Positions 2,747-21,333 of a stretch of DNA of 64,000 nt are shown in pieces. The DNA is from Escherichia coli (lineage in GTDB: Bacteria; Pseudomonadota; Gammaproteobacteria; Enterobacterales; Enterobacteriaceae): NCBI RefSeq assembly GCF_041248615.1, contig NZ_CP158425.1, one strand, 5' to 3'. The first letter of the stretch is position 1; every line of letters begins with the position of its first letter. The translations under genes were made by a program, and so were the position numbers. The notes under the pieces are model-generated. The model had not been told where the DNA came from and ran no database searches. It saw only the letters and a program-made list of their open reading frames with translations.

Positions 2747-2757
2747 TGGAGCTATGA

Positions 2758-3546
2758 ATGAAAATGCTAAGTGGCATTAACATCCCTTTTTTCAAAAAAT
2801 CTAAAAAGGATGAAAACGGTGATCTTGAACAGTCATACGTAAAGAAAGATGAAAGTGCTAAGGGACGTTTTTTGGACATTAAAAAACGATTTAGCCCACA
2901 AGCTGAAGCGTCAGGTGCTGGAATTACATACAGCGCCCTGATTAATCGTGATACAAAACTTATCCGCATTAATACTGTTTCAATAGCCGTCATTGGGTTA
3001 TTGGTTGCAAAGATTCTTTTTTTCACTGACCCAGTGACGATTGTTACCCCTCCAAACATGAATGAAGAGATCACGGTTGTTGGTAACAAAGCATCGGAAT
3101 CTTATAAAACACAATGGGCTCTCTTTTTTAGTACCCTTTTAGGGAATATTAATCCAACTAATATTTCCTTTGTGACGGCCTATGTCCTCGATGCCCTTTC
3201 ACCTGAACTACAGGCTAAAACGAGTGAGTCTTTACAGGAGCAGATAAATATCATGCAGGCTCGTGGTGTTGAGCAGACCTTTAAGCCTAATGATATTTAC
3301 TTTGATCCAAAAAATGACATGGTCTATGTCTGGGGTACCAAAACGACTCGACTTGTAAATGTTCCGGACAAAACTGAATCATCGAAATGGACTTATGAAT
3401 GGGTTCTCGGGATGAAAAATGGTCGCCCAAGAATTGCATATGTAAATCAATATTCCGGAACACCGAATATTAAAAAAATTACGATAAACGGCAAAGAGCA
3501 ACTGGCAACGCTGGATAATCCGCCACCGTCTACAGGTAACAAGTGA
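2758..3546 (+). CDS. trhE: TraE-like pilus assembly protein
   Basis: 262-aa ORF with N-terminal TM anchor and periplasmic domain; conserved F-type order pilin-L-E-K-B. Confidence 0.55.
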   Translation: MKMLSGINIPFFKKSKKDENGDLEQSYVKKDESAKGRFLDIKKRFSPQAEASGAGITYSALINRDTKLIRINTVSIAVIGLLVAKILFFTDPVTIVTPPNMNEEITVVGNKASESYKTQWALFFSTLLGNINPTNISFVTAYVLDALSPELQAKTSESLQEQINIMQARGVEQTFKPNDIYFDPKNDMVYVWGTKTTRLVNVPDKTESSKWTYEWVLGMKNGRPRIAYVNQYSGTPNIKKITINGKEQLATLDNPPPSTGNK

Positions 3547-4817: not shown

Positions 4818-4818
4818 T

Positions 4819-5280
4819 ATGGGAAAAGTTACTTTGCCTGCTCTGCTTGGGGCCACCGTGATTGGTTTTGTCGTATTTGCTTTAACCAGCTTTTACTACA
4901 GGTCAGAATATATACCAAAAAGGAGTGTATTAATCGTTCCGGACGCACCCATTAGTATCGAAGATGGCAGTAACGCTTTTCCCGTTCAGACAGTAATAAT
5001 GAACGATCCAACTCTTATTGATAAATTTGTAGGAGAGGACAATATTAATGAGGAGAATGCTTTTGACTATCACAAAAGTAACGTTTTGGAACCTAATTAC
5101 AAACATGAAATATCTAGAACGAGCCAGATAGATAAAGCTGAAATGAATCATCCATCTGTTCGTGAAAACTGGGCCAGAGCAGGTGATCCCTATATCGTTC
5201 CTCAGATGTCTGACAGCGAACGAAATCTAAAAATTAAACGATTCCAGAAACCTACAAGTGGAGCTAATCATGGACATTAA
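4819..5280 (+). CDS. Hypothetical membrane-anchored protein
   Basis: 153-aa ORF with one N-terminal TM helix, tightly packed between the TraK-like and TraB-like genes. Confidence 0.4.
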   Translation: MGKVTLPALLGATVIGFVVFALTSFYYRSEYIPKRSVLIVPDAPISIEDGSNAFPVQTVIMNDPTLIDKFVGEDNINEENAFDYHKSNVLEPNYKHEISRTSQIDKAEMNHPSVRENWARAGDPYIVPQMSDSERNLKIKRFQKPTSGANHGH

Positions 5281-6632: not shown

Positions 6633-7115
6633 ATGGATAGTTTAGAAAAAAAAGAATCGACTGAATCAGCTGGACCTGAAATCACTAAAAAAATGGTGCG
6701 AGAAAGGACAACAAAAAAAATTACCTTCGAAATTGATATTGAAAAAATATTGAAGTATTTATTTTTCTTCGCCTTTGCCGTTTTGGTCATTATTTATGGT
6801 TATAAAGGCTTTATGAATGTTTACGATTACTTCAATAAACAATCACAGCCTTCGTACAAGATTGCAGTGCTTGACATGCCTGAATTACGTAAGGAATTTT
6901 TCAAGCATCACGGAGGCCGTACTGCTGACAATGATAGAACTCAATTCGAAGAATATTTCAGAACATTAATGAAGATCTACCGTGACCGTGGCTATTTAAT
7001 TATTGATGCAACGCTTGCCGTTACTGTACCGGATAGTGTTGAAATCGTCACTTATATGGAACTTGAAGATAGCTCTGAAGCGGTACAATCAAGTTCTTAT
7101 AATGCAAAGAAGTAG
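6633..7115 (+). CDS. Hypothetical membrane protein
   Basis: 160-aa ORF with a central TM segment (YLFFFAFAVLVIIYGY). Confidence 0.4.
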   Translation: MDSLEKKESTESAGPEITKKMVRERTTKKITFEIDIEKILKYLFFFAFAVLVIIYGYKGFMNVYDYFNKQSQPSYKIAVLDMPELRKEFFKHHGGRTADNDRTQFEEYFRTLMKIYRDRGYLIIDATLAVTVPDSVEIVTYMELEDSSEAVQSSSYNAKK

Positions 7116-7986
7116 AGGGCACCCAATAGTGAAAAAGTTACTTTTCCCTTTAATGGCGGCTTTCGCCATTATGGCGAATACGGTCACTTATGCTTCAGAG
7201 CAGGTCCTAACTAATAGTGATGCTGCTGCGTTAATGGCAAAGGCAAAGGAAGGCGGCGTTTCACCCAGTCAGATCTCGGGTGCGTTATCAAAAATGAAAG
7301 GATATAAACCTAAGGATGCCATATACATTCCTTCTGGTGGGCTATACCTCTTTCAGGACGAGCGTTCGCAGCTAATGGCAGTAACGACCGATGGCCGATA
7401 CTCCCTTACTGGGGGAAGCCTTGTTGATGTAATTAAACGTAAACCTGTTCTGACTGTAGAAGAAATCAGAAATTCCTATTTTATTAGTCTTGATGAGGCC
7501 CCCTTCCCTCTGGAAACTGTAGCGTCCATTCATCTGGGAAATTCAAAGCTTAAGAGACAAGCAGCCATTTTCTTAACACTTGATTGTGACGGTTGCATGG
7601 AACTTGTTAAGAAATTTTATGCAGATCGGGACAAGTATCGGATAGATATTGTTTTAGTTCCCTCACCCGGTGAGCCAAAAGAAGAGCTTAGAAGGCTCTG
7701 GTGTAGTAAAGAAAAAGGAAAAATAAACAACCTCGATATTCTTCGTTGGCTAATGGGAAGCAAATCCGACATTGAAAAAAGATTGCTCTCTCAAAAAGAA
7801 GCAGAAGAATGTCCGGCGGAACCTTTGGTAGCGTCATTGATGCTCGCAGGAATTTATAAATTGCAGGGTGTACCTTCAGTTGTCAGACAGGATGGTTTGG
7901 CTGGTAATGGCATTCCAAAAGATTTCGACTACTGGTTGAACCAAAGCGTTGAACCTCTCTTAAAAAATCCATTTGAGACAAATTAA
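7102..7986 (+). CDS. Periplasmic thiol:disulfide interchange protein (DsbC/TrbB-like); ORF-track start 7003 overlaps the upstream gene, ATG 7102 or GTG 7129 more likely
   Basis: Signal peptide (KKLLFPLMAAFAIMANTVTYA) and a CxxC motif (CDGC) in a ~300-aa periplasmic protein inside a transfer operon. Confidence 0.5.
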   Translation: MQRSRGHPIVKKLLFPLMAAFAIMANTVTYASEQVLTNSDAAALMAKAKEGGVSPSQISGALSKMKGYKPKDAIYIPSGGLYLFQDERSQLMAVTTDGRYSLTGGSLVDVIKRKPVLTVEEIRNSYFISLDEAPFPLETVASIHLGNSKLKRQAAIFLTLDCDGCMELVKKFYADRDKYRIDIVLVPSPGEPKEELRRLWCSKEKGKINNLDILRWLMGSKSDIEKRLLSQKEAEECPAEPLVASLMLAGIYKLQGVPSVVRQDGLAGNGIPKDFDYWLNQSVEPLLKNPFETN

Positions 7987-7995
7987 GGCTAGTTT

Positions 7996-8946
7996 ATGAA
8001 CATCAAAAGATTGGTACTCAGTGCTCTGGTTGTAGGTACATCCTCATATCTTACGGGGTGCTCCATCGGGAGTTCCGAATCCGAATGTCCAGGCATTGAA
8101 AAGGGCGTTATCTGTAAAGGTCCTCGCGAAGTTATGGAGTTAACTAATAATCGAGATGATCTGTCTGCACTTGCGGGGGAAGAGTCGGAATCGGGAAAGG
8201 AGAAATCGGCTGTCAATGACAGCCGTTATCCAACTGAAATTAGCCCTCCAGGGGAAGTCAAATATCCACAGTCTACAACCCTTAAAAATCAGCCTGTGGC
8301 TTATTCAAAAACCGAAATTAAGCCAGTTGGTCAGTTACCTGTCATGTACGATAAAACTTTAAAAATGGGTGCCCCTACTTCATCCATTGGACCACGGCCT
8401 ATTTCTGGTGTACCGGTTAATTCAAACGTAAGGATGACTAGCAGTTATAGCACTGCCTCTTCAGCTGGTAACCCTTTCGTTCATCCGGCTGCGGAAGTCG
8501 TTAAACAAACAAGCTATCCGGTTTCTGCTGGAAATGCACCACGCTACGTTGCACCTAATTCTGATATCAGCCCTGGCAAGGATATGTACTCTCTTTACAA
8601 TGGCCAGCCCGTTAACCCTACTCTCAACACTGGGCAGATCCAGCAATACCGTTCGCAAGGTTATAAACAAGCTGTAGTGGCTCCTGAACCACTTGCTGTT
8701 CTGCAACAGGGGAAAGTAATGAGAATTACTTTTGCACCTTATACCGATGATAACGATGCGCTTAATCTTCCCGGCTACGTTTATGTCAACGTAAAACCGC
8801 AAACATGGATTGCTGGCAAGAATTCGACCTCAAACCCAGCTCGCATAGTTCCTTTAGAAGTACAGGATGCGGCCCGGGAAAATATGCAGCAGCAACAAAA
8901 AGCAACTAAAGCTGTCTCTTCGAACGGCATTGTTAGACAACTGTAA
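7996..8946 (+). CDS. trhV: TraV-like outer-membrane lipoprotein
   Basis: Lipobox (LTGCS) after the signal peptide; Pro/Ser-rich; lies between the TraB-like and TraC-like genes. Confidence 0.55.
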   Translation: MNIKRLVLSALVVGTSSYLTGCSIGSSESECPGIEKGVICKGPREVMELTNNRDDLSALAGEESESGKEKSAVNDSRYPTEISPPGEVKYPQSTTLKNQPVAYSKTEIKPVGQLPVMYDKTLKMGAPTSSIGPRPISGVPVNSNVRMTSSYSTASSAGNPFVHPAAEVVKQTSYPVSAGNAPRYVAPNSDISPGKDMYSLYNGQPVNPTLNTGQIQQYRSQGYKQAVVAPEPLAVLQQGKVMRITFAPYTDDNDALNLPGYVYVNVKPQTWIAGKNSTSNPARIVPLEVQDAARENMQQQQKATKAVSSNGIVRQL

Positions 8947-8954
8947 GGTCAAAT

Positions 8955-11636
8955 ATGGAAGCTATCAATAATTACAATAGCGGTTTAAATCGCCATCAAT
9001 TAGGTGGGTTTATCCCTGTTTACGATCAATTAGCAGGGACTCACTATTTTTTGATTGATGGCAACAGATTAGGGTTTATGTTTATCTGTAATCCATCACC
9101 TGGAGTTTTTGATAATCAGCAAGATGTTCTTGCTGAAATGTTCAAAATGGATTTTCCTACAGATACTGTCTGTCAAATATCTCTGACTGCATTGCCAGAC
9201 TTGACTTTACAGCTTAGTGCTTGGTCAGCTGTGCGAGGTGGGCGTATGACTGGGAACGATAAGCTTAAAGCAGATCTGCTTAATGGTTATCAGTTGGACT
9301 ACTACGACAGAAGTATGCATAAGCCTTTAAAACCTGATCATGATAACCTTATGTTGAGGGATTTTCAGGTATGGATCTCGCTATCGATTCCTTTACAGTC
9401 TGCCCTTCCTACCGAGCTGGAACATTCGCGTATCGATTCACTTTACTCTGAACTTGTAAGTAAGTTAATTACGATTGGACTGCATCCGTTTAAGGTCGAT
9501 GCAGAAAACTGGCTCTATTGTATAGATAAGGTCGTAAACCCCGGAAAGAACTCTCGGTGGGCTGAAGGTTTTATAGACGTTAACACTATGAAAAGGCTTA
9601 ATGAACAAGTTAACGTTCCCGGCCGTAAGTATACAGTCACAGAAAATCATTTCTCATCAGTCACACAAAGTGACGACGAATCTGAGCATCGTTACTTCAA
9701 ACAACTTTCCGTTGTAAAGTTTCCTGAATACGTCAATTTCGGTTGTATGTATGAGTTAGTAGTTAACTGGATGCATGGACGTAAGACAATTTTCAGCCCA
9801 TTTATGATCACTCAGACTGTTCAGTTTGCCGATCCGCTCAAGTTGTCAAAAGAAAACGTCCGCTACAAAGCAATCACTAATAAACAGGCAAGTATACCTT
9901 CAGTTGTCACATTCTGCCCTCGCCTGCGGGATATGGATAATGACTACATGGCCGTAACTCGCGAGCTTGAGGATGGCGCAAAGCTTTTAAGAGGGTATCT
10001 TACTTTCACTGTTATGGGTAGTAATGCCAATTCTGTGCAGACAGCAGCTAACGATCTCAAATCCTTTTACCTCGAAAGCCGGGTCAAAGTAGCAGATGAT
10101 TCCTTTATCGTTTTCCCGTCATTTATGTCATGTCTGCCAATGTGCAATGACCCAAAGACAATTTTCGACCTTGACCGATCCGAAGTAGTGAGCAACACCG
10201 GAGCGGCTCATATGACGCCGATCTTTGGGCCCTGGAAAGGTAATACAGATAGACCAGTACTGAGTTTAGTTTCTCGTGAAGGTCAACTCATGGGACTTGA
10301 TATTTTCAAGACTTCTGCAAGCTATAACATGGTTATTGGTGCAACGTCAGGTGCAGGCAAGTCATTCTGGACAGCATATCTAATCAATAACTATCTTGGA
10401 GCTGGACCGCGATCTAATAACCTCGTTCATTATCGCTCAACATTTAAGCATTTTTTAGAAAACGAATACCCAGATGATGATCCTGATGGTGCTCAAGTTT
10501 TTGTAGTGGACGTGGGGCGTTCTTACCAGGGGATTGCGGAACAATATACAAACAGTCAATTTATTGATTTCGGTAAAACCCCTGACTTCACCCTAAATCC
10601 CTTTGCCTTCCTAACTGACATCACTGTTAACGACGATGTATTTAACGAAGCACCTGAATTTACCGGTGAATCAACTTCAAACGATGCAGAAAAAGACAAA
10701 GTTGCTCAGACCATAATGGTTCTGAATCAGCTAAAAATTATGGCTTCAGAGAAAGGCCTTATCGATGATTATCAACAATCAGTGATGCTTCAGCTTATTG
10801 CAGAAGAGTACCAGGAATCCAGAAAATCAGGTCGGACCGGTTCAATAACCGGCTTTGCTCTGCGTTGCAAGAAGCATGAAGACAAACGTATAAAGGATAT
10901 TGGGGAGCAACTCGGAGCATGGTGCGAAGGTGGAATTTATGGGCACCGGTTTACCGATACGTTGCCTCCAATCAACTTCGACAGCAGATTTATTGTTTTG
11001 GAACTGGAGGAGCTAAAAGGCACCCCCCACCTTCAGACAGTTGTTTTAATGTCTATCATTCAGGCTGCTCAGCATGCAATGTTCATCAAAAAAGATGGGC
11101 GTCGTCGCTTGTTCATCCTAGATGAAGCTTGGGAGTACATTCGTCCTGATAATTCATCAGGTGCCGGAAATCAATCAAACCAATTCTTCTCTTCCTTCCT
11201 CGAAGCGGCATGGCGTAGGTTCAGGAAAACAAACTGCGCTGGCATCTGTATCACACAGTCGTTTGAAGATTATTTTACTTCTTCTGTTGGCCGGGCCCTG
11301 ACTGCTAACTCGCCTTGGAAGATAATCATGAAACAAGAAAAAGAAAGCATTGAAGCAATGAAGGCTAATAAATATTTTTCTACTTCAGATGCAGAATATG
11401 AACGAATGAAAAATATTCGTACAGTCAAAAAGGTGTTTTCAGAGATGTTAGTCAGGTTCGAAAACTTCCAAGAGATCTGTCGGTTATACGTAGACCGGAA
11501 AATGGAGCTTTGTTTTACTACGGATAGTGCTGACAGGAGTAAATTATGGGAAATTCAAAGCCGCGAGAATTGTAGCTATGGCGAGGCAATAGAAATTCTC
11601 TATGCTCAAGAAGTAGCAGCGGGTTTGGCCGCGTAG
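8955..11636 (+). CDS. trhC: TraC/VirB4-family type IV secretion ATPase
   Basis: 893-aa ORF with Walker A (GATSGAGKSF) and a DE-type Walker B region (FILDEAWEY); size and operon position typical of F-type TraC. Confidence 0.9.
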   Translation: MEAINNYNSGLNRHQLGGFIPVYDQLAGTHYFLIDGNRLGFMFICNPSPGVFDNQQDVLAEMFKMDFPTDTVCQISLTALPDLTLQLSAWSAVRGGRMTGNDKLKADLLNGYQLDYYDRSMHKPLKPDHDNLMLRDFQVWISLSIPLQSALPTELEHSRIDSLYSELVSKLITIGLHPFKVDAENWLYCIDKVVNPGKNSRWAEGFIDVNTMKRLNEQVNVPGRKYTVTENHFSSVTQSDDESEHRYFKQLSVVKFPEYVNFGCMYELVVNWMHGRKTIFSPFMITQTVQFADPLKLSKENVRYKAITNKQASIPSVVTFCPRLRDMDNDYMAVTRELEDGAKLLRGYLTFTVMGSNANSVQTAANDLKSFYLESRVKVADDSFIVFPSFMSCLPMCNDPKTIFDLDRSEVVSNTGAAHMTPIFGPWKGNTDRPVLSLVSREGQLMGLDIFKTSASYNMVIGATSGAGKSFWTAYLINNYLGAGPRSNNLVHYRSTFKHFLENEYPDDDPDGAQVFVVDVGRSYQGIAEQYTNSQFIDFGKTPDFTLNPFAFLTDITVNDDVFNEAPEFTGESTSNDAEKDKVAQTIMVLNQLKIMASEKGLIDDYQQSVMLQLIAEEYQESRKSGRTGSITGFALRCKKHEDKRIKDIGEQLGAWCEGGIYGHRFTDTLPPINFDSRFIVLELEELKGTPHLQTVVLMSIIQAAQHAMFIKKDGRRRLFILDEAWEYIRPDNSSGAGNQSNQFFSSFLEAAWRRFRKTNCAGICITQSFEDYFTSSVGRALTANSPWKIIMKQEKESIEAMKANKYFSTSDAEYERMKNIRTVKKVFSEMLVRFENFQEICRLYVDRKMELCFTTDSADRSKLWEIQSRENCSYGEAIEILYAQEVAAGLAA

Positions 11637-11666
11637 AGTAAATATCTTCAAGCAAAAACAATTAAA

Positions 11667-11697
11667 CCAGATGTCTCATAAGAATCTGGTTTTTTAT
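11667..11697 (+). terminator. Intrinsic terminator candidate after the TraC-like gene
   Basis: Stem CCAGAT/ATCTGG (11667-11672, 11684-11689) with 11-nt loop, followed by a T-run. Confidence 0.45.
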
Positions 11698-12060
11698 TGT
11701 ATGCCTTAAGTAAACAAATGAGGTTATGACTTAATGAGTTCATCACTGTGCTGCAAATTTTGGTTTTATAATTAATATGGCTTAAAAACAGTGACATAAT
11801 TACAAATCGCATTTAGGTTGTGTACGCATTAAGTAAACAAAATTTATAACATCAATACTGACTTTATAAGATGAAATTCACGTAAATTACATTTTTGTTT
11901 ACCAAAGGTAATCAAAGGAGCGCGGCATTATTAGTGAAAACAGATCACTGGTGTCATATTGCATACAAAACTTAATATCCTTTAATCATTCTTCTAAAAG
12001 TTTAATATTAACGCTTTGGTTTATGAAAATTTATCCAATTTGCTCACCGAAGACTTTTAA

Positions 12061-15000
12061 CTTATTTAACCCCCTTTATCGCCAATCTGTGATTTTCTAA
12101 TGTTAGCCTACAGTTCTAGGGCCCTTGCTCCCATGATGCGAATCCTTCCACCTAATAAAGATTAACGCCTCATTCCTGTATGCCGGTCTTACGACGCCAG
12201 TGCACGGACAATTTTTGGTCATCACAAGGCCAGGCGGGAGATTTAATCAGGGCGTGGTGTTCCTTTGCAGCAGCTGCGGCACTGTAAGCCGAAGGCGGAA
12301 TTAACTCCTTTATCGCCATCTGGGGACGTCATTAGGGGTACCCCTTTTAACTTGCTCAGGACCATTAAGCTAAAATTCCGGATAGTGATTGACGTAAGAT
12401 TTAGGCTAAGCAGGTAAAGTGATCCCCGCTCCCGGGGTGACCACTTTATACAAAAGGCCGATCGGAAGATTGTCCTTAGGGAAATATTCCTTTAACACAG
12501 CACGGGCACTTACTGCCGCTGCCGGATTTAACCCCCTTAATCGCCAAACTGGGGTACTGTCCTGATGCTGGCCTTCCGTCCTGGGCAGGGTTGCTAACAC
12601 TTGCTCCCATGATACGAAATGCGCCAGCTGATACAGATTAACGTCTCATTACTCCATGCCGGTCTGCCGAAACTGGTGCATAGCTTTTTTCGATATTCGC
12701 ATGAACAGACGCTTGATTTTTTCAGGTTGTAATATACCTGAGCAGCATCTGAAGGCACTTTCAGTCGCTGTCAGATTTAACCCCCTTAATCGCCAAACTG
12801 GTGTTCTGTCCTCATGCAGGCCTTCAGTTCTGAGCTGGGTTGCTATCACTTGCTCCCATAATGCGAAATGTACCTGCTGATACAAATTAACGTCGTATTC
12901 CTGTATGCCGGTCTGCCGACACCAGTGCTCGGGCTATTTTCGGTCCTAACAAGACCTGGCGAGAGATTTAATCAGGGCGTGGTGTGACTGAGCAGCAGCT
13001 GGGGCACTGTTATCCGCTTGCAGATTTAACCCCCTTAATCGCCACACTGGGGTTCAGTCCTGATAGTGTCCTTCCGTCCTGGGCTCGGTTGCTAACACTT
13101 GCTCCCATGATACGAAATGCGCCTGCTGATACAGATTAAAGTCACATTACTGCATACCGATCTGCCGACTCCGGTGCATGGCTTTTTCCGATAATCACAA
13201 GGACGGACGGGTGATTTTATCTTTGCATAGTATGTCTGAGCAGCATCAGAAGGCTCTGTCAGCCACTGGCAGATTTAACCCCCTTAATCTCCAAACTGGG
13301 ATCAGTCCTGATAGTGTCCTTCCGTCCTGGGCAGGGTTGCTAACACTTGCTCCCATGATACGAAATGTGCCTGCTGATACAGATTAAAATCACATTACTG
13401 CATACCGGTCTGCCGACACCGGTGCATGGGCGATTTCCGACGATCTCAAGAACATATGGGAGATTATATCAGGGAGAGTAGTATGCCTGAGCAGCATCTG
13501 AAGGCACTGTCAGCCGCTGTCAGATTTAACCCCCTTAATCGCCAAACTGGTGTTCTGTCCTCATGCAGGCCTTCAGTTCTGAGCTGGGTTGCTATCACTT
13601 GCTCCCATAATGCGAAATGTACCTGCTGATACAAATTAACGTCGTATTCCTGTATGCCGGTCTGCCGACACCAGTGCTCGGGCTATTTTCGGTCCTAACA
13701 AGACCTGGCGAGAGATTTAATCAGGGCGTGGTGTGACTGAGCAGCAGCTGGGGCACTGTTATCCGCTTGCAGATTTAACCCCCTTAATCGCCACACTGGG
13801 GTTCAGTCCTGATAGTGTCCTTCCGTCCTGGGCTCGGTTGCTAACACTTGCTCCCATGATACGAAATGCGCCTGCTGATACAGATTAAAGTCACATTACT
13901 GCATACCGATCTGCCGACTCCGGTGCATGGCTTTTTCCGATAATCACAAGGACGGACGGGTGATTTTATCTTTGCATAGTATGTCTGAGCAGCATCAGAA
14001 GGCTCTGTCAGCCACTGGCAGATTTAACCCCCTTAATCTCCAAACTGGGATCAGTCCTGATAGTGTCCTTCCGTCCTGGGCAGGGTTGCTAACACTTGCT
14101 CCCATGATACGAAATGCGCCAGCTGATACAGATTAACGTCTCATTACTCCATGCCGGTCTGCCGAAACTGGTGCATAGCTTTTTTCGATATTCGCATGAA
14201 CAGACGCTTGATTTTTTCAGGTTGTAATATACCTGAGCAGCATCTGAAGGCACTTTCAGTCGCTGTCAGATTTAACCCCCTTAATCGCCAATCTGGGATT
14301 TTCTGATGTTAACCTACAGTTCAAGGCCCTTGCTCCCATGATGCGAACCTTGCAACCTGATAAAGATTTAAGCCTCATTCCTGTATGCCGGTCTTACGAC
14401 TCTAGTGCACGGGGACTATTTTCGGTCATAATAAGACCTGGCGGGAGATTTAATCAGGGCGTGGTGTGACTGAGCAGAAGCTGGGGCACTGTCAGCCGCT
14501 GGCAGATTAAAACCCTTTATTCGCCATCTCAAGACGTCATTATGGGTAGTCCTTTTAACTTTCTAAGGACCATTAAGCTTAAACTCCGTTTAGAGAATGA
14601 CGTAAGATTTAGGCTAAGCAGGTTAAGTGATCCCCGCTCCCGGGTTGAACACTTTATTCATCGTACGAGCGAAAGATTGTCCTTCGGGAAATATTTCTTA
14701 TACACCGCTCGGGCACTTACAGCCACTGGCGGATTTAACCCCCTTAATCGCCAAACTGGGGTACTGTCCTGATGCTGGCCTTCAGTTCTGGGCTGGGTGG
14801 CTATCACTTGCTCCCCTAATGCGAAATGTGTCTGTTAATACAGATTAACGTCATTTTCCTGCGTGCCGGTCTGCCGACACCAGTGCACGGCCTTTTTTCG
14901 GTCATTACATTACCGGGCAGGAGATTTTATCAGGGCGTGGTGTTACTGAGCAGGAGCTGGGGCACTATCAGCAGCTTGCATATTTAACTCCCTTAATCGC

Positions 15001-15640
15001 CAAACTGGTGTTCTGTCCTCATGCTGGCCTTCAGTTCTGGGCTGGGTTGCTATCTCTTGCTCCCATAATGCGAAATGTATCTGCTGATACAGATTAACGT
15101 CATATTCCTGTATGCCGGTCTGCCGACACCAGTGCTTGGGCTATTTTCGGTCATAACAAGACCTGGCGAGAGATTTACTCAGGGCGTGGTGTGACTGAGC
15201 AGCAGCTGGGGCACTGTCATCCGCTTGCAAATTTAACCCCCTTAATCGCCAAACTTGGGTTTTGTCCTGATGCTGGCCTTCCGTTCTGGGCGGGGTTGCT
15301 ATCACTTGCTCCCATCATGCGAAAAGTGCCTGCTGATACAGATTAACGTCATATTCCTTCATGCCGGTCTGCCGACACAAATGCACGGGCTTTTTTCGGT
15401 CCTTACAATACCGGGCAGGAGATTTAATCAGGGCGTGGTGTGACTGAGCAGCAGCTAGGACACTGTCAGCCGCTGGCAGATTTAACCCCCTTAATCGCCA
15501 CACTGGGGTTGCCTCCTGAAGTTGGGTTTCAGTTCTGGGCTAGGTTGCTAACTCTGCTCCCATAATTCGTAGTGGGCCTACTCAAGAGATTAACACCTCA
15601 TATCTTTAGACTGGACTGACGACAACGATTCACAGTTAGG
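12061..15640. repeat. Tandem array of about 14 direct repeats of ~249 bp with nested higher-order duplications
   Basis: The motif GATTTAACCCCCTTAATCGCCA(A/C)ACTGG recurs at about 12524, 12773, 13022, 13271, 13521, 13771, 14020, 14268, 14732, 14982, 15229 and 15478, with diverged copies at about 12062, 12300 and 14505. A 749-bp block is near-identical at 12650-13398 and 13399-14147, and the 12061-12600 flank is echoed at 14270-14810. Confidence 0.9.
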
Positions 15641-15973
15641 AAACGTAAATCAGCACACCGGTGAGATAGATTTTAGGGTCTAAGCAAGAAATAGGGTAGG
15701 CGTGAAGATTCATTAATGGAGCTCATAACGTCAAAGCGTAGAGAAGTCGACAAGAATCGTGGTTTAAAAAGAATGAGCATTAGGTATGGACTAGAGAGTC
15801 TGAGCTCTCATCTGCAAGTTAAGCTCACAAAAAATCATAAAAAAGTAAACAAACATTAGCTTAGGATTGAAACAAAGGATAGAATTGTACGTATAACAAT
15901 GAAATGGACGCATTATGCGTAAAGTTTACATATATGCGTAAAAGTCGGTTTTCAGTGCAAAAAGGTCATAACC

Positions 15974-17227
15974 ATGAATTTACTTGAAAAGATCGCCCTC
16001 GTTGGTCAGCGCATGAAAAGCGAGCAGATTTCTCTTAAGGAATCTCTGATGGCTTCATCAAGAGTATCTGTTTCTGATGATAGTGTTGATGGTGTTGATA
16101 GACTGATCTACAACCACTGTTTAAATAAAAAAAATCTCTCTGATTTTTTTGGGAAGTCACGAGTAACGTTCAATAAAATACTTTCGGACTTAGAAGAAAA
16201 AGAAGTTGTTGGTGCACCTATTTATCAAAACAAAAATCATCTTTACACCCGCTGGGATGTTCAAAAAATAATGGATGCCCTGGGTTATCCCAAGTACCGC
16301 GATCATTACTTTAGCAGAGCTATTGTTACTCAGAATCATAAAGGCGGTACAGGGAAAAGCACTACATCTGTAGCTTTAGCAGTAGCAGCTGCTTTAGATC
16401 TACAACTGAATGCACGTGTATTAATGATCGAATGGGACCCACAAGGTTCGATTGGAAGCAGCATGATTCAAAGTGTCTCAGAAGATGATGTCTTCCTTAC
16501 AGCAATTGATGCAATCCTTGGAATTTATGAAGAAAATTCTGAGTATAAAAAATATTTAGATTCAGGATTCTCTGAAGAAGAAATCATCACTAATATGCCT
16601 TTTTCAACGCATCTGCCAAACTTGGACGTGATAACGGCATTTCCGACAGATGCTCGTTTTAAAGATAAATACTGGCAATGTTCTAGAGAAGAACGAACGT
16701 CTTTGTTACTACGTTTCAAGGAAGTTATCTTACCGGTACTGAAGCAGAACTATGATTTGATTATTATAGACACTCCACCTGAAGATTCACCTTTGATCTG
16801 GGCTGCTGACGAAGCGGCCGATGGGATTCTTGTCGCAGTGTCACCACGTGAATATGATTACGCCTCTACTACAGACTTCATGCTTACAATAAGTGAAAGG
16901 TTTAAACAATCACCAAGTAAGGGCGATAATTTAAAATGGTTCAAAGTTCTTGCTGTCAATGTTGATGACAAAAGTCCATATGAAAGAATAGTTTTGGATA
17001 AATTAATCAGAACTGTTCAGGACCTTTTGATGTCCGCTAACATAAAAAATTCTGAAGCATTTAAGGCAGCTGCTTCCAAAGGGCGTACAGTGCTTGATAT
17101 CAAAAAATCAGAGGAACTTTGTTCCGCAAAGCAACTTGATGTCGCAGAAGAATCTGTATTACAGGTATATCAACAATTTATAAATGAAATAAAAAGTTTT
17201 TCAGCTAAGCAAGGAGTTAACGCATGA
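15974..17227 (+). CDS. parA: Type Ia partition ATPase ParA (SopA/P1-ParA-like, N-terminal HTH extension)
   Basis: 417 aa; deviant Walker A (KGGTGKST) preceded by a ~110-aa N-terminal domain; translationally coupled to the downstream ParB-like gene. Confidence 0.9.
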   Translation: MNLLEKIALVGQRMKSEQISLKESLMASSRVSVSDDSVDGVDRLIYNHCLNKKNLSDFFGKSRVTFNKILSDLEEKEVVGAPIYQNKNHLYTRWDVQKIMDALGYPKYRDHYFSRAIVTQNHKGGTGKSTTSVALAVAAALDLQLNARVLMIEWDPQGSIGSSMIQSVSEDDVFLTAIDAILGIYEENSEYKKYLDSGFSEEEIITNMPFSTHLPNLDVITAFPTDARFKDKYWQCSREERTSLLLRFKEVILPVLKQNYDLIIIDTPPEDSPLIWAADEAADGILVAVSPREYDYASTTDFMLTISERFKQSPSKGDNLKWFKVLAVNVDDKSPYERIVLDKLIRTVQDLLMSANIKNSEAFKAAASKGRTVLDIKKSEELCSAKQLDVAEESVLQVYQQFINEIKSFSAKQGVNA

Positions 17228-18228
17228 GCGATGAGCAACATATCGGGAATGATAAATCTCGATATTTAAACGCACCAAAGCGGACAGAAGTCGGTCACCG
17301 TTCAGGTCTTGCGGGTTTGAAAACAGCACCTCGCATAAAAAAGTTATTCACTCTTCATAAGGGCCGAAGACTTGAAGCGGAACATGTGATTGTTCCAGCC
17401 CAGAGAGTGGAGAAGGAGACCTTAGTCCATCCAGCAAACCCACGAAATCAAGAAGCCCTTACAGATTATTCTGTTAGAGATATTCTTAAGCAGATTGAAG
17501 AAAGAGGGGTCGATACCGAAGGGATCGCTGTAAAAAGAGATGGGGTTTATTTATTAATAGAAGGAAGTCGCAGACGTTTCTGCTGTATAAAGGCAGAAAA
17601 GGATCTCCCCCTGTGGGTACTACCGGATGAACTAACCGAAGATGATATAAATTCAATTATATCCGCAGCACAAACATCTCGAAAATTTTCATATAGAGAA
17701 GTTGGGTTTCAATTTATCAAGAAAATGGAAGAAAAGGGATTTTCTACTAATGAAGAACTCGCAGCATATCTTGGGATTAGTCATGTATCGGTAGCCAAAA
17801 GAATCCAGGCGGCCCGTATTGACGAAACATTGATCTCTTTATTCCCGGATTATGAAGGAATACCGAACTCCTATTATAGTCGCTTGTCTCGTTTACAGAA
17901 ATATGTGCAAAAAAATCTATTTCCTTTAGATGAAGTAATAGATAATGTTAAAGAGGAAACAAAAGATTTAGACATTGGAGATCTCCAAGTTGCCCAAAAA
18001 GTTGTAATGGAGAAAATCACACAATCTGTGGAAAGTGTTTGTGAAAAATCTTATTCCACAAAATGGGAAACAAGTGATCTTATTACTTTTGATAACAAAG
18101 ATAAGTATGCAAGAATCAGTAAAAACAATACTGGAAGAAAAATTCGCATTGAATTCAATAGGATAAGTGCGGGTTTTATTAAGGAGCTAGAGGAGTTCAT
18201 AAAAGAAAAATTAAAAGTATCAGAATAA
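17224..18228 (+). CDS. parB: ParB-like partition protein (centromere-binding)
   Basis: 334-aa ORF overlapping the parA stop by 4 nt; size and operon context typical of type I ParB/SopB. Confidence 0.7.
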   Translation: MSDEQHIGNDKSRYLNAPKRTEVGHRSGLAGLKTAPRIKKLFTLHKGRRLEAEHVIVPAQRVEKETLVHPANPRNQEALTDYSVRDILKQIEERGVDTEGIAVKRDGVYLLIEGSRRRFCCIKAEKDLPLWVLPDELTEDDINSIISAAQTSRKFSYREVGFQFIKKMEEKGFSTNEELAAYLGISHVSVAKRIQAARIDETLISLFPDYEGIPNSYYSRLSRLQKYVQKNLFPLDEVIDNVKEETKDLDIGDLQVAQKVVMEKITQSVESVCEKSYSTKWETSDLITFDNKDKYARISKNNTGRKIRIEFNRISAGFIKELEEFIKEKLKVSE

Positions 18229-18289: not shown

Positions 18290-18679
18290 TTAATATGGGG
18301 TGTGCGCAGGTTCAGACATATAAGGTCTTAGTTCTATATGAACAGAAGCGCCATTCCCATCATTTACTACGTTTAAAGGTGCTTTGCCCGGCAATGACAT
18401 AGTTGCAACGTCAGGTCCAGAAACAGCAAAATTATTTTCTGCTGAAGGCATTACTGTAAAAATCTTTATAGCAACATTTTCATGTCTAAATAAAGAAATC
18501 CCAAAAGTAGAACCAGCTTCGGTATTGCTCACGTCCACAACCACAGGGGTTTTTCCTAGATATTCATTAGTTAGTATGTTTTTTACTAATGCCCCTTCCG
18601 GGACAGTATAGATACGGTATGGATATGCTAAAACTGAGTGACAAAAACATAATAAAATAACAATTAATGTTTTTTTCAT
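18290..18679 (-). CDS. Hypothetical exported protein
   Basis: 129 aa with signal peptide (MKKTLIVILLCFCHSVLA); last gene of a four-gene minus-strand operon with overlapping junctions. Confidence 0.45.
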   Translation of the reverse strand: MKKTLIVILLCFCHSVLAYPYRIYTVPEGALVKNILTNEYLGKTPVVVDVSNTEAGSTFGISLFRHENVAIKIFTVMPSAENNFAVSGPDVATMSLPGKAPLNVVNDGNGASVHIELRPYMSEPAHTPY

Positions 18680-19197
18680 AGATTATCCTCATTCAAAAAT
18701 AAAAGATATAACTCTTGAAAATCGTGGTTATTAATTAGGTCCGCTTTTCCGGGAAAATCGTAACTAACAGAAAATAAAAGAGAAAGAGAATCTTTTCCTT
18801 TTGCTTTGGGAGAGATTCTGCTAAAAGCACGGTTAATAAACATAAGTTGATCTTCATTGTTGAAGCAAAGTCCAAGCATTCCAACCGTAGGAACTACGAA
18901 TGTGCTTACGCTGCCTGGGGGCAAAAGTTGCTTACTACGGGCATTGTAAGCACAACGACTACCACCTAGCGTTAGGCCTGAAAGCTCAATAAAACTTCTG
19001 GTTCCATTCTTGGCGACAAGCCAAACATCAGTTCCTGAACTTTCGACACGTAAAGTAACTTTTCCGTCAGTAAAGGCCTCACTTTTATTGTATAGAATAG
19101 GGTCAAAACCAACTGTCGGGAGTTCTTCGATTTTACTTTCTACTGACTGACAACCAGTCAGTAATGCAAACAATAAAAGTGTGATAACTTTAATCAT
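18676..19197 (-). CDS. Hypothetical lipoprotein
   Basis: 173 aa; lipobox LLTGCQ after the signal peptide; 4-nt overlap with the downstream gene. Confidence 0.45.
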   Translation of the reverse strand: MIKVITLLLFALLTGCQSVESKIEELPTVGFDPILYNKSEAFTDGKVTLRVESSGTDVWLVAKNGTRSFIELSGLTLGGSRCAYNARSKQLLPPGSVSTFVVPTVGMLGLCFNNEDQLMFINRAFSRISPKAKGKDSLSLLFSVSYDFPGKADLINNHDFQELYLLFLNEDNL

Positions 19198-20026
19198 CCC
19201 GCTTCCTTAGATTGTTTTTGGCGCTGGTTATAAAAGATAATGATTCACCGGGGTAGAGAATTGTTTCTTTCGTCCAATAACCATAACCACCGAGGATATC
19301 TTTTCTTTTCTCAATATAAACCGGTTCAGAAAATTCTAAATGTTGATATTTCGGAAGAGATAAGATTTTATATTTTACTTGTCCAACTAAGAGGTAATTC
19401 TTCTCTTTAGGATTGATGGTTACTGAATTACCAACACTTTGAGGTATGTTAAGTTTTTTTATATTTAGATCAGAATCGTCAGGAACGGACACTTGATCAT
19501 TAGATGTCTTTCCGGGAAGAGTAAACCCTTTACCCTGATCCGGTCCAAAGATGGCAATTACATCTTTGTTGTTTCTTGTGATCGAAACGATAGCCTGAAG
19601 GGGCGTATTAGCAAGGTCATTTATAAACGATATAGTTATACTTGATTTAGGCTCGACCCAAACAATGCTTTTTCCGGATGTGCCTTCGCTTAATGCAATT
19701 TTTTCATTTAGTAAGATTTTATTTTTGGCAATGATATTATACTCAAGTTTCGGTATCACCATAAAAAGTGATTCTTTATTTGAAACATTCATGATTTCTA
19801 AGAAATTGGTTTTGGTCATGCTGGTCTTTAGAGCAGGCCTATATTTACCATTTATAAACCACCTTCCGTTTATAAGCTCCGCTTTAGCAGATATAAGTGA
19901 ATCACTTTTCTGAGCGGCAGAAGAAAAAGCATCTTTTCTTTGCTCTTTCTCTTGATGTGGTGCAGCTGCTGCGTGAAGATGCAAAAGTAATGTTGAAATT
20001 GAGATAATCTTCCATTTTATCTTCAT
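19190..20026 (-). CDS. Hypothetical exported protein
   Basis: 278 aa with N-terminal signal peptide; overlaps neighbours at both ends. Confidence 0.45.
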   Translation of the reverse strand: MKIKWKIISISTLLLHLHAAAAPHQEKEQRKDAFSSAAQKSDSLISAKAELINGRWFINGKYRPALKTSMTKTNFLEIMNVSNKESLFMVIPKLEYNIIAKNKILLNEKIALSEGTSGKSIVWVEPKSSITISFINDLANTPLQAIVSITRNNKDVIAIFGPDQGKGFTLPGKTSNDQVSVPDDSDLNIKKLNIPQSVGNSVTINPKEKNYLLVGQVKYKILSLPKYQHLEFSEPVYIEKRKDILGGYGYWTKETILYPGESLSFITSAKNNLRKRDD

Positions 20027-20970
20027 CTTGTTACCTCAATGTTGTTTTCAATCGAATCGAGTTCTAAAGGATAGGTTTTAAGTGAATAAAACTTGTTTGT
20101 TGTTTGTATTAGCTGATGACACAATAAAACTGGATTGTTCTTCATGATTATTTCTACTAATGTAAGTGCTGGTGAGTCAGTTGGCGGTATACCCGGAGCA
20201 ACTATTACCTGGTCTTCTAATTTTGACATATAGAGTGATCCAGTATTTATATGTAAACAATTACCGATCAGTACTGGAAGATTGTTTTGAGTACGACCAT
20301 GGGCTTTTCGAATGCTGTTTACAGGATTCCTACCTAGGACCATAAGGTTGACGTCATTTATCATCATTGGTATTACGGCATGGTCCATACCGAATAGAAA
20401 CTGGCTCTGAAAAATATTCACATTGGCATAGTTGAATGCTTGAAGCGCATTATAAGTATCAGTGAATGATGTGCGGATAGGGGCGTAATCAGAAGGGCAA
20501 ACCCCAATTTTTATATCGCCTTTGAGTAAAATCTGCATCATCGTACCAAGCTGGGTATTAAGAAGTTTTTTTACCTCTTCCTCTAAATAGTAACGATTTA
20601 CAGCTTTATGCCACTTTCCGCCCATTACACACCATCTCTCATTGAGGTATGTGCTGGGGTAAAATGTTCTCCGGTCTTTGTTTAATGGTAACAATTTTTT
20701 TAACATTTCTTCTCCGGCTCCGGCAGCTGAGAAATGCCTCACAAAACGTCCATCGAAAAAGCCACTGTTTATCGCCTTCATCAACTCTATGGGTTCCGGC
20801 CCATAGTCAAACAAATTTCCAGTAGAGAAAATTACTATCTCTTCTTCTGGCTTTGTAACTGATTGAATCAAGTTGCACAGCGCAGAGTAATGTCCATGAG
20901 GATCTGCCAGAAAGAAAATCCTTCCCGAGAAGTTTGTAAGGTCTATAGTTTGGACGTGCTCAGCTGCCAT
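20023..20970 (-). CDS. Calcineurin-like metallophosphoesterase (PrpA/ApaH-type phosphatase fold)
   Basis: 315 aa with D-x-H-G (LADPHGH) and GNLFDYG (GDxxDRG-like) metal-binding motifs; first gene of the minus-strand operon. Confidence 0.65.
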   Translation of the reverse strand: MAAEHVQTIDLTNFSGRIFFLADPHGHYSALCNLIQSVTKPEEEIVIFSTGNLFDYGPEPIELMKAINSGFFDGRFVRHFSAAGAGEEMLKKLLPLNKDRRTFYPSTYLNERWCVMGGKWHKAVNRYYLEEEVKKLLNTQLGTMMQILLKGDIKIGVCPSDYAPIRTSFTDTYNALQAFNYANVNIFQSQFLFGMDHAVIPMMINDVNLMVLGRNPVNSIRKAHGRTQNNLPVLIGNCLHINTGSLYMSKLEDQVIVAPGIPPTDSPALTLVEIIMKNNPVLLCHQLIQTTNKFYSLKTYPLELDSIENNIEVTR

Positions 20971-21333
20971 AAATTCCTCTACGTATGTTTACATCGATGA
21001 TACGGTATTTCGAGCTATGATTTTTTTACATAAAGGCGTCATTTTGGATTCTAAGCCTAAGGACCTTTGTTACTTACTGGTAAAGGCTCCAGTCCTGGCT
21101 CTCAAACAGTTCATACTTAGGATGCAAAGTAACTTTCTGATTATAATTGGCTCCTTTATAAACATGTTTACTTCATGAATACAGGATATTTAACGGTAAT
21201 GTATTTAAAATGGAAGGATGCTGAAATAACATAGAGTTACGTATTTTTTTAATAGTGTTGATGTTGATAATAGGTCACCATTAATGTATAAAGTTAATAT
21301 CTAATATGGTCCTATTAATAAAAGAGAGTTTTT

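What the first reader, a model, noticed from the sequence alone, without database searches (positions are those of the whole stretch)
12061..15640. About 3.6 kb mosaic array of ~249-bp tandem repeats between the TraC-like gene and parA
About 14 units of ~249 bp each begin with the near-invariant 28-mer GATTTAACCCCCTTAATCGCCA(A/C)ACTGG and have a conserved ~150-bp half and a more variable ~100-bp half that exists in a few recurring variants. A 749-bp block (three units) is duplicated almost exactly, and the array's 5' flank is echoed about 2.2 kb downstream, indicating ongoing unequal recombination or gene conversion. Its position just upstream of a type Ia parAB operon makes a centromere or incompatibility role plausible, but the unit length is much greater than typical parS repeats, so an array of small RNA genes or protein-binding landing pads is equally possible.
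Basis: seen in the sequence. Interest (0 to 1): 0.7.

Follow-up and report, generated by a model that had tools for sequence, protein, structure and literature searches.

The report
IncHI2 plasmid centromere repeat array
The 3.6-kb repeat array is most likely the centromere of an IncHI2 resistance plasmid: 15 copies of a 21-bp site resembling the phage P1 partition site, spaced unusually far apart (249 bp), which the adjacent ParB protein would bind to segregate the plasmid at cell division.

Summary
Window 12063-15640 carries 15 head-to-tail units, all in one orientation. Thirteen are about 249 bp and two are degenerate 'odd' units. The array lies between trhC and a type Ia parA-parB operon on an IncHI2 plasmid, and the same sequence is found in dozens of independent complete plasmids.

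The functional element is probably a 21-mer, ATTTAACCCCCTTAATCGCCA, not the 249-bp unit.
- The identical 21-mer occurs about 29 times at 52-54-bp spacing upstream of parA in an IncHI1 plasmid, and 11 times at 54-bp spacing in a K. grimontii plasmid.
- More distant ParB relatives (45-55% identity) have single sites or arrays of 38-, 66- or 67-bp units next to parAB. Their sites share the same layout: short inverted arms, a C5 spacer, then TCGCCA or a variant.
- The arm sequence changes together with the ParB helix-turn-helix.
- ParB matches the P1 ParB DNA-binding fragment, and the 21-mer aligns with the P1 parS A2-A3-B2 core.

The other ~228 bp of each unit occurs only in IncHI2 plasmids, diverges faster than flanking non-coding DNA, and shows no coding, promoter, Rfam or RNA-covariation signal. 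Copy number ranges from 10 to 20 units among plasmids.

Verdict: this is a Par1 centromere (parS array), a new variant of a known kind. ParB binding has not been tested experimentally.

The parts
8955..11636 (+). trhC (TraC-family conjugation ATPase), the last Tra2 gene before the array; context only
   Evidence: ORF; annotated 'TraC family protein' / TrhC in identical plasmids
12063..15640 (+). The whole array: 15 direct units forming the proposed Par1 centromere (parS array). It has a higher-order layout: [u01 short, u02 odd, u03-u09 canonical] then [u10 short, u11 odd, u12-u15].
12064..12084 (+). Site 1 (u01): ATTTAACCCCCTTTATCGCCA, 1 mismatch to the 21-mer
12299..12318 (+). Site 2 (u02, odd unit): degenerate box AATTAACTCCTTTATCGCCA with a one-base deletion; TCGCCA is kept
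12526..12546 (+). Site 3 (u03): exact 21-mer ATTTAACCCCCTTAATCGCCA
12775..12795 (+). Site 4 (u04): exact 21-mer
13024..13044 (+). Site 5 (u05): exact 21-mer
13273..13293 (+). Site 6 (u06): 1 mismatch, in the box-B-like hexamer (TCTCCA)
13524..13544 (+). Site 7 (u07, identical to u04): exact 21-mer
13773..13793 (+). Site 8 (u08, identical to u05): exact 21-mer
14022..14042 (+). Site 9 (u09): 1 mismatch (TCTCCA)
14270..14290 (+). Site 10 (u10, short unit, paralogue of u01): exact 21-mer
14506..14526 (+). Site 11 (u11, odd unit, paralogue of u02): degenerate, 4 mismatches (ATTAAAACCCTTTATTCGCCA)
14733..14753 (+). Site 12 (u12): exact 21-mer
14982..15002 (+). Site 13 (u13): 1 mismatch
15231..15251 (+). 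Site 14 (u14): exact 21-mer
15480..15500 (+). Site 15 (u15, last and truncated or diverged unit): exact 21-mer
15831..15973 (+). Probable par promoter and ParA operator region. Apart from the 21-mers, it is the only part of the trhC-parA gap with detectable similarity to IncHI1. It contains the palindrome ACGCATTATGCGT (15908-15920) and the direct repeat TATGCGTAAA (15914-15923 and 15933-15942).
   Evidence: 74% identity to pMAK1 and 75% to the K. grimontii plasmid. The operator role is inferred from what is known of type Ia ParA autoregulation.
15974..17227 (+). parA: type Ia Walker ATPase of 417 aa with an N-terminal extension
   Evidence: V. cholerae ParA2 7npd, E=4e-37; P1 ParA 3ez2, E=2.8e-12
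17224..18228 (+). parB: P1-type centromere-binding protein of 334 aa. It has a GSRRR arginine patch, a helix-turn-helix, and a C-terminal PF08775 dimer / box-B-binding domain.
   Evidence: 1ZX4, E=3.6e-16, residues 150-330; PF08775, 207-330, E=9.1e-11

Best explanation
The array is the centromere (parS array) of the IncHI2 Par1 partition system encoded directly downstream by parA and parB.

Each unit carries one 21-bp ParB site, ATTTAACCCCCTTAATCGCCA. The site has two short inverted A-box-like arms (ATTTAA / TTAAT) around a C5 spacer, followed by the hexamer TCGCCA, which is identical to P1 box B. This is the layout of the right-hand core (A2-A3-B2) of phage P1 parS.

Inferred mechanism. ParB dimers bind the arms through the helix-turn-helix and bind TCGCCA through the C-terminal dimer domain. 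ParB then spreads from the 15 loading sites to form one large partition complex. The type Ia ParA ATPase moves that complex over the nucleoid. ParA also represses the par promoter at the operator between the array and parA.

The remaining ~228 bp of each unit is most likely lineage-specific spacer. It would be kept similar among units, and constant in length, by unequal crossing-over and gene conversion, which also change the unit number.

What is shown and what is inferred. Shown: the anatomy, the family-wide association of the site with parAB, the matching changes between site and ParB, and the homology to P1 ParB. Inferred: ParB binding, spreading, centromere activity and incompatibility.
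For: 1. The identical 21-mer recurs with a different unit length. IncHI1 pMAK1 has 29 sites (26 exact) at 52-54-bp spacing upstream of parA. A K. grimontii IncHI1A-type plasmid has 11 sites at 54-bp spacing. Their ParB proteins are 71-73% identical to this one. Apart from the 21-mer and the promoter region, the trhC-parA gaps of IncHI1 and IncHI2 share no detectable similarity.

2. More distant ParB relatives (45-55% identity) also carry sites of the same layout next to parAB.
- Providencia: single sites AAAACAACCCCCTTGTTCGCCA upstream of parA and AAAACCACCCCCTTGTTCGCCA downstream of parB.
- IncHI5 pK92-qnrS: 41 units of 67 bp upstream and 14 units downstream, AACAACCCCCTTGTTCGCAG.
- K. pneumoniae pKP059: 23 units of 66 bp.
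- Serratia symbiotica: 3.6 units of 38 bp, AAACACCCCCTGTTTGCCCA.

3. The arms change while staying inverted complements: TTAA/TTAA, AACAA/TTGTT, AAACA/TGTTT. They change together with the ParB helix-turn-helix region: SHVSV[AS]KR, ES[VI]RKR and TSINKR, against AKVTRA in P1. The TCGCCA to TCGCAG change coincides with GRK[IV]R.EFNR to GQKVSFEFKR in the C-terminal domain.

4. ParB residues 150-330 match the P1 ParB(142-333) chain of 1ZX4 at E=3.6e-16. Pfam PF08775 is matched over its full length.

5. The annotated P1 parS boxes are A = ATTTCAC/ATTTCAA/GTGAAAT and B = TCGCCA. The P1 A2-A3-B2 core, ATTTCAAGGTGAAATCGCCA, aligns with the 21-mer, sharing ATTT.A at the left and AATCGCCA at the right.

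6. The box is the most conserved part of the unit, nearly invariant across 25 distinct units from 4 lineages. It holds the fewest differences between positionally equivalent units of two lineages: 4 of 109 fall in the first 25-bp bin.

7. All sites point the same way, and none occurs elsewhere in the 64-kb window.

8. Only about 60 bp separate parB from the next, converging ORF, so there is no room for a P1-style downstream parS.
Against: - There is no experimental evidence here for ParB binding or centromere activity. I could not read the R27 Par1 paper (Lawley & Taylor 2003, PMC154067) or the R27 and R478 sequence papers.
- The match between ParB and site variants rests on only four sequence groups that are also phylogenetic groups, so shared ancestry alone could produce it.
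- The site departs from P1 parS in several ways. There is no IHF consensus. The spacer between arms is 5 bp rather than 3 bp. The site lies upstream of parA rather than downstream of parB.
- The interior shows locally conserved blocks. AGATTAAC at about +111 is present in nearly every unit, and an AGATTTAAT-like motif sits at about +191. Pure spacer does not explain these.
- Two units (u06, u09) carry TCTCCA instead of TCGCCA.
Confidence: 0.85

Rival explanations
1. Each 249-bp unit is a composite centromere module. In addition to the 21-bp core, the interior carries functional elements: accessory A-box-like half-sites or a site for a second protein. These would shape a wrapped or looped ParB complex, so the interior is needed for full activity and is not just spacer.
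For: An AGATT(T)AA-type motif recurs in the same orientation at about +0, +111 and +191 in most units. The pattern AGATTT?[TA]A[ACT] occurs 27 times on the + strand and 0 times on the - strand, against a mean of 0.29 in shuffles, although the units are not independent samples. GATTAA at about +115 is invariant across 25 distinct units from four lineages, and the block TTGCTAxCACTTGCTCCCAT is well conserved. P1 parS also uses extra A boxes (A1, A4) beyond its core. The 249-bp period is kept in every IncHI2 lineage examined.
Against: IncHI1 arrays carry the identical core in 53-bp units with no such accessory motifs. Providencia has single sites. The odd units u02 and u11 and the short units u01 and u10 lack or alter the interior. 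Positionally equivalent interiors differ by about 11% between lineages, while neighbouring single-copy non-coding DNA differs by about 4%. A constant period is expected from in-register unequal crossing-over alone. There is no IHF consensus.
Confidence: 0.2
2. The units are small RNA genes, or the array is transcribed to give unit-length regulatory RNAs.
For: Units are of sRNA size. Some contain a weak terminator-like hairpin followed by a T-run, for example 12657-12678 and 13163-13176.
Against: No Rfam match at E<=1 over 11500-16100 on either strand. Three promoter-like sites were found against a mean of 7.4 in shuffles, and none recurs once per unit. RNAalifold on 15 units from three lineages gave only about -20 kcal/mol over 259 columns, with a covariation term of -0.11 on the + strand and +0.18 on the - strand. 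The only part conserved across plasmid families is the 21-mer.
Confidence: 0.04
3. The repeats are replication iterons or a replication-linked incompatibility locus bound by a Rep protein, unrelated to ParB.
For: Direct repeats in one orientation are typical of iterons, and IncHI plasmids do use iteron replicons.
Against: No rep gene lies next to the array. Sites of this family sit beside parAB in plasmids with different replicon typing: IncHI1A, IncHI2A, IncU/rep_cluster_1254, IncFIB, or no typed replicon. The site arms change together with the ParB helix-turn-helix.
Confidence: 0.03
4. The array is a decayed repetitive protein-coding gene (249 = 3 x 83 codons), or it is an assembly artefact.
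For: The period is divisible by three. PGAP annotates occasional short 'hypothetical protein' ORFs inside the array in some records.
Against: Every canonical unit has at least one stop codon in all six frames, and the longest open stretch in the array is 100 codons. IncHI1 units are 52-54 bp, which are not all multiples of three. The identical 3.7 kb is present in at least 39 independent complete plasmids, and length variants differ by whole units.
Confidence: 0.01

Closest known systems
Phage/plasmid P1 parS (P1par family, type Ia ParABS)
   Same: ParB is homologous through both DNA-binding modules (1ZX4 match, residues 150-330; PF08775). The 21-mer has the order of the P1 A2-A3-B2 core: inverted A-box-like arms followed directly by box B, with the identical hexamer TCGCCA and the shared flank AATCGCCA. 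ParA is a long type Ia ATPase.
   Different: P1 has a single ~80-bp site downstream of parB, with an IHF site and extra A1, B1 and A4 boxes. Here there are 15 tandem sites upstream of parA and no IHF consensus. The spacer between arms is C5 rather than 3 bp. The A-box is ATTTAAC rather than ATTTCAC. ParB is only 28% identical to P1 ParB.
F plasmid sopC (12 tandem 43-bp repeats, each with one SopB-binding inverted repeat); from established knowledge, not tested here
   Same: A type Ia centromere built as a tandem array of direct repeats. Each repeat carries one short binding site for the centromere-binding protein, and the array lies next to the par operon.
   Different: The unit here is 249 bp rather than 43 bp. 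The array lies upstream of parA rather than downstream of sopB. The ParB type and site sequence are different.
IncHI1 (R27/pMAK1-type) Par1 locus
   Same: Same gene order, trhC - array - parA - parB. ParB is 71% identical. The 21-mer is identical, in direct orientation upstream of parA.
   Different: The unit is 52-54 bp, with about 29 sites in two blocks, and there is no sequence corresponding to the IncHI2 interior. From memory, Lawley & Taylor 2003 showed that Par1 is the main stability determinant of R27. I could not read that paper to see what it says about the repeats.
IncHI5 / IncHI3-like Klebsiella plasmid parAB-associated arrays (pK92-qnrS, pKP059)
   Same: ParB homologues (47-48% identity) are flanked by long tandem arrays. 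Each unit has a site of the same layout: AACAA-C5-TTGTT followed by CGCAG.
   Different: The units are 66-67 bp. Arrays lie on both sides of the operon (41 + 14 units). The arm and box-B sequences differ.
Vibrio cholerae chromosome 2 ParA2/ParB2-parS2
   Same: ParA's best solved relative is V. cholerae ParA2 (7npd, E=4e-37). It is also a type Ia system.
   Different: From memory, parS2 sites are dispersed 15-bp palindromes and not a tandem array. ParB2 was not compared here.

Membership tests
P1par-type (type Ia) partition system | ParB has a helix-turn-helix (A-box reader) and the P1-type C-terminal dimer / B-box domain | tested here: met
   1ZX4 P1 ParB(142-333) matched over residues 150-330, E=3.6e-16; Pfam PF08775 matched at 1-125 of 126 positions, E=9.1e-11
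P1par-type (type Ia) partition system | Long ParA (~400 aa) with an N-terminal regulatory region, encoded directly upstream of parB | tested here: met
   417 aa. Aligns from residue 63-64 with ParA2 7npd (to 396; E=4e-37) and with P1 ParA 3ez2 (to 315; E=2.8e-12). parA and parB overlap by 4 bp.
P1par-type (type Ia) partition system | The centromere contains inverted box-A heptamers next to a box-B hexamer (TCGCCA in P1) | tested here: met
   ATTTAA-C5-TTAAT-CGCCA against P1 ATTTCA-AGG-TGAAAT-CGCCA. TCGCCA is exact in 13 of 15 units. This is sequence resemblance only.
P1par-type (type Ia) partition system | IHF-binding site inside parS | tested here: not met
   No WATCAANNNNTTR match anywhere in 12063-15640
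P1par-type (type Ia) partition system | Single parS located downstream of parB | tested here: not met
   15 sites lie upstream of parA. About 60 bp separate parB from the next, converging ORF, and no 21-mer occurs there.
P1par-type (type Ia) partition system | ParB binds the site, and the site confers partition and incompatibility | not testable with these tools
   Needs EMSA or ChIP, and stability and incompatibility assays
Tandem-repeat plasmid centromere (sopC-like organisation) | Direct tandem units, each with one short site for the centromere-binding protein, next to the par operon | tested here: met
   the same organisation is seen in relatives
Tandem-repeat plasmid centromere (sopC-like organisation) | Short unit (tens of bp) made up mostly of the binding site | tested here: not met
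   The unit is 249 bp, of which 21 bp is the conserved site. Relatives have units of 38-67 bp.
Structured small-RNA gene array | Per-unit promoter and terminator, conserved secondary structure with covariation, or a match to a known family | tested here: not met
Replication iterons | Adjacent to a rep gene or origin, and varying together with Rep | tested here: not met
   No rep gene nearby. The sites follow parAB across plasmids with different replicons.

The most novel reading that the evidence does not exclude
The IncHI2 unit is a new kind of composite centromere module. A P1-like A2-A3-B2 core and two phased accessory half-sites (about +111 and +191) would let ParB wrap or loop about 250 bp of DNA per unit without IHF, producing a regularly spaced, nucleosome-like partition complex. 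Separately, because the core is identical in IncHI1 and IncHI2, this shared centromere would contribute to the incompatibility that defines the IncHI group, which (from memory) is usually attributed to the shared RepHIA replicon.
Probability: 0.15. Interest if true: 0.55.

Novelty: new variant of a known kind. Interest (0 to 1): 0.4.

Why it matters
IncHI2 plasmids are major carriers of mcr-1, mcr-9, carbapenemase and heavy-metal resistance genes in Enterobacteriaceae, and how they are stably inherited has been little studied. A defined 21-bp ParB site gives a concrete target for three uses: plasmid curing or incompatibility-based displacement, ParB/parS labelling of these plasmids in live cells, and correct annotation of a 3-6 kb region that is left blank or filled with spurious small ORFs in more than a thousand database records.

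The comparison across families also gives a natural series for study. One ParB family uses single sites, or arrays of 38-, 53-, 67- and 249-bp units, with matching changes in protein and site. That series can be used to ask how site number and spacing affect partition-complex assembly, and how P1-type specificity evolves.

The repeat also explains a practical problem. The locus is a hotspot for copy-number change and for assembly collapse.

Tried and rejected
- Small-RNA array: rejected. Rfam gave no match at E<=1, promoter-like sites were not enriched, and RNAalifold on both strands gave weak energy and no covariation.
- Coding or decayed coding repeat: rejected. Every unit has stop codons in all six frames.
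- The 249-bp unit as three or more decayed short units: not supported. Local alignments between the three segments that start with AGATT(T)AA scored no better than shuffles (p = 0.46-0.72).
- IHF site as in P1 parS: none found in the array.
- Origin of the interior from another element: not found. A sensitive blastn of one interior against 72,556 plasmids hit only the same 1,128 IncHI2-type records. Local blastn against the IncHI1, K. grimontii and K. pneumoniae gaps matched only the 21-mer and the promoter region.
- The site in other contexts. The scan of one genome per species found only 249-bp-spaced arrays in four other enterobacterial genera, together with one 381-bp low-coverage 'Streptomyces' contig that is probably contamination. 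The viral scan gave a single hit inside an ORF, consistent with chance.
- Literature. Lawley & Taylor 2003 (PMC154067) and the presumed PMC id for the R27 sequence paper (PMC105367, quoted from memory) are not held. The R478 sequence paper was not looked up. No held paper contains the motif sequence. Papers on IncHI plasmids that were searched do not describe the repeats.
Full report
**What the window is.** The region is 100% identical over 3.7 kb to many complete E. coli and Salmonella plasmids typed IncHI2A, MOBH and MPF_F. In total 1,128 plasmid records match it. The gene order is trhV - trhC (8955-11636) - repeat array - parA (15974-17227) - parB (17224-18228). Four conserved minus-strand genes follow, then a second partition module, parM.

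**Checking the observation.**
- Tandem Repeats Finder reports a 249-bp period with 12.6 copies at 12504-15594.
Shuffles gave none.
- Relaxed matching and a multiple alignment give 15 units from 12063 to about 15640.
- Units u01 and u10 are a 236-bp variant. Units u02 and u11 are 'odd' units of 226-227 bp with a degenerate box and an unrelated interior.
- The array therefore has a higher-order layout: [short, odd, canonical x7] then [short, odd, canonical x4]. The 85% echo between 12063-12524 and 14269-14731 reflects this.
- The '749-bp duplication' (12774-13522 against 13523-14271) is 95.5% identical overall and exact only over the first 594 bp.
- Among canonical units the first 150 bp are more alike (81-100%) than the rest (65-100%). 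The rest falls into a few recurring classes.
- The array is not an assembly artefact. The identical sequence occurs in at least 39 independent complete records, and length variants differ by whole units.

**What is conserved across plasmid families.** The key result came from the neighbourhoods of ParB homologues found in the plasmid collection.
- IncHI1 plasmid pMAK1 (ParB 71% identical) has the same trhC-parA gap. It is filled with 52-54-bp repeats carrying 29 copies, 26 of them exact, of ATTTAACCCCCTTAATCGCCA, which is the core of the IncHI2 28-mer.
- A K. grimontii IncHI1A-type plasmid (ParB 73%) has 11 copies at 54-bp spacing.
- Outside the 21-mer and about 100 bp of promoter region (15831-15939), the IncHI1 and IncHI2 gaps share no detectable similarity.
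- The IncHI2 interior is found only in the same 1,128 records.

The element under selection is therefore the 21-mer, not the 249-bp unit.

**More distant relatives show the same logic with altered sites.**
- A Providencia plasmid (ParB 53-55%) has one site, AAAACAACCCCCTTGTTCGCCA, 138 bp upstream of parA. A second, AAAACCACCCCCTTGTTCGCCA, lies downstream of parB.
- IncHI5 pK92-qnrS has 41 units of 67 bp upstream and 14 downstream, with AACAACCCCCTTGTTCGCAG.
- K. pneumoniae pKP059 has about 23 units of 66 bp, interrupted by ISKpn34, and 2.4 units downstream.
- A Serratia symbiotica plasmid has 3.6 units of 38 bp with AAACACCCCCTGTTTGCCCA.
- The shared layout is 4-5-bp inverted arms, a C5 spacer, then TCGCCA or a variant.
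- The arms change by paired substitutions that keep them inverted complements: TTAA/TTAA, AACAA/TTGTT, AAACA/TGTTT.
- In the ParB alignment, the helix-turn-helix region differs between exactly these groups: SHVSV[AS]KR, ES[VI]RKR and TSINKR, against AKVTRA in P1.
- The C-terminal strand GRK[IV]R.EFNR accompanies TCGCCA, and GQKVSFEFKR accompanies TCGCAG.
- This is what protein-site co-evolution would produce. There are only four groups, however, and phylogeny is confounded with them.

**Relation to P1.**
- ParB residues 150-330 match the crystallised P1 ParB(142-333) fragment, which contains both the helix-turn-helix and the dimer domain, at E=3.6e-16.
- Pfam PF08775, the P1-type ParB C-terminal domain, is matched end to end.
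- The GSRRR arginine motif is invariant across the family.
- ParA is a long type Ia ATPase. Its best solved relatives are V. cholerae ParA2 and P1/P7 ParA.
- The annotated P1 parS has A boxes ATTTCAC/ATTTCAA/GTGAAAT and B boxes TCGCCA. Its A2-A3-B2 stretch, ATTTCAAGGTGAAATCGCCA, aligns with ATTTAACCCCCTTAATCGCCA.
- From memory of the P1 literature, that right-hand core is the minimal, high-affinity part of parS.
- Differences from P1: no IHF consensus in the array, a 5-bp rather than 3-bp spacer, many tandem sites, and a position upstream of parA. Only about 60 bp separate parB from the next, converging ORF.

**What the other 228 bp is.**
- No Rfam match.
- Fewer promoter-like sites than in shuffles, and none recurring once per unit.
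- RNAalifold on 15 units from three lineages gives about -20 kcal/mol over 259 columns, with a covariation term near zero on both strands.
- Stop codons in all six frames of every unit.
- No internal sub-repeat homology.
- Between the window lineage and an R478-like lineage, trhC, parA and parB are 98.5-99.3% identical and single-copy non-coding spacers are 95.5-96.5% identical. The four positionally equivalent terminal units are only 89.2% identical, with the fewest differences in the box.
- The interior therefore evolves faster than neighbouring non-coding DNA, as expected for filler that is reshuffled by gene conversion.
- Against pure filler, AGATTAAC at about +111 is nearly invariant and an AGATTTAAT-like motif recurs at about +191, both in the orientation of the box. 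They could be accessory A-box half-sites. I keep this as the main rival, at about 0.2.
- The array is also richer in G+C (45-53%) than its flanks (29-42%).

**Dynamics.**
- All IncHI2 lineages examined keep the ~249-bp period and the two short-odd pairs.
- Unit number varies: 10 in pRHB28-C21_2, which has the same ParA and ParB protein accessions as the window lineage; 13 in several lineages; 15-16 in the window and p5ASAL07_294k; and 20 in pF18S019-1. The trhC-parA gaps are 3,089, about 3,836, 4,337 and 5,600 bp.
- pSH111_227 has only three sites. This is either a real deletion between boxes or a collapsed assembly.

**Mechanism proposed.** ParB dimers recognise each 21-mer, with the helix-turn-helix on the arms and the dimer domain on TCGCCA. 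They load and spread over the 3.6-kb array to form one large partition complex. ParA-ATP on the nucleoid moves that complex. ParA also represses the par promoter at the palindrome and direct-repeat operator at 15908-15942, the only other part of the gap conserved with IncHI1. The anatomy, family-wide association, co-variation and P1 homology are shown. Binding, spreading, centromere function and incompatibility are inferred. Confidence is 0.85.

**Novelty.** A tandem-repeat centromere beside a type Ia par operon is a known kind, as in F sopC, and the R27 Par1 system has been studied. I found no accessible paper that gives the 21-mer or describes the IncHI2 array. The older R27 papers I tried to open are not held, and the R478 paper was not looked up. 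Three points appear new or at least unusual: a P1-type core used as a long tandem array upstream of parA; the very long 249-bp unit in IncHI2; and an identical core in IncHI1 and IncHI2, which predicts partition-based cross-incompatibility. I rate it a new variant of a known kind, interest 0.4.

Noticed in passing
window 11664-11695: A hairpin (AAACCAGAT, 11-nt loop, ATCTGGTTT) followed by a T-run lies just after the trhC stop. It looks like the intrinsic terminator of the Tra2 operon, which would shield the array from read-through. The simple terminator scan missed it because the stem is A+T-rich.
   Followed up: no
window 11700-12060: A very A+T-rich spacer (29% G+C) lies between trhC and the array, while the array itself is 45-53% G+C. 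The contrast could matter for H-NS binding on these H-NS-silenced plasmids.
   Followed up: no
L011 (pSH111_227, NC_019114.1) 3636-5018: This IncHI2 record has only three sites: u01, u02 and a u03/u15 fusion. It is either a real recombinational deletion of about 12 units or a collapsed older assembly.
   Followed up: partly
L013 (IncHI5 pK92-qnrS) 1586-4353 and 7068-8030; L005 (pKP059) 1986-3505, 4755-4913, 8194-8349: Klebsiella IncHI5 / IncHI3-like plasmids carry arrays on both sides of parAB (41 + 14 units of 67 bp). In pKP059 an ISKpn34 has inserted into the upstream array. These parAB loci are flanked by large Ig-like-domain protein genes.
   Followed up: partly
L012 (Providencia pPROV050-1) about 4590-4616 and about 7190-7215: Single sites rather than arrays flank the parAB operon, one upstream and one downstream. 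This may be the ancestral or minimal state of this centromere family.
   Followed up: partly
window 18290-21000 (- strand) and about 21334 onward: Between Par1 and the second partition module (parM) lie four conserved minus-strand genes: three hypotheticals and a metallophosphoesterase. The same arrangement is kept in IncHI1 and the K. grimontii plasmid. Their function is unknown.
   Followed up: no
window 12171-12320 (- strand); L007 7186-7347: PGAP annotates short 'hypothetical protein' ORFs inside the array in some records (WP_001424493.1, WP_001371949.1). Given stop codons in all frames of every unit and the non-coding conservation pattern, these are probably spurious calls.
   Followed up: partly
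L019 (Streptomyces cahuitamycinicus NZ_POUC01001015.1, 381 bp, coverage 0.86): A very short, low-coverage contig in a Streptomyces assembly contains the exact 21-mer. It is most likely contamination from an enterobacterial plasmid.
   Followed up: no
L023 7426-7444 (IMG/VR contig): The only viral-contig match to the 19-mer core lies inside an ORF and is isolated. This is consistent with a chance match.
   Followed up: yes
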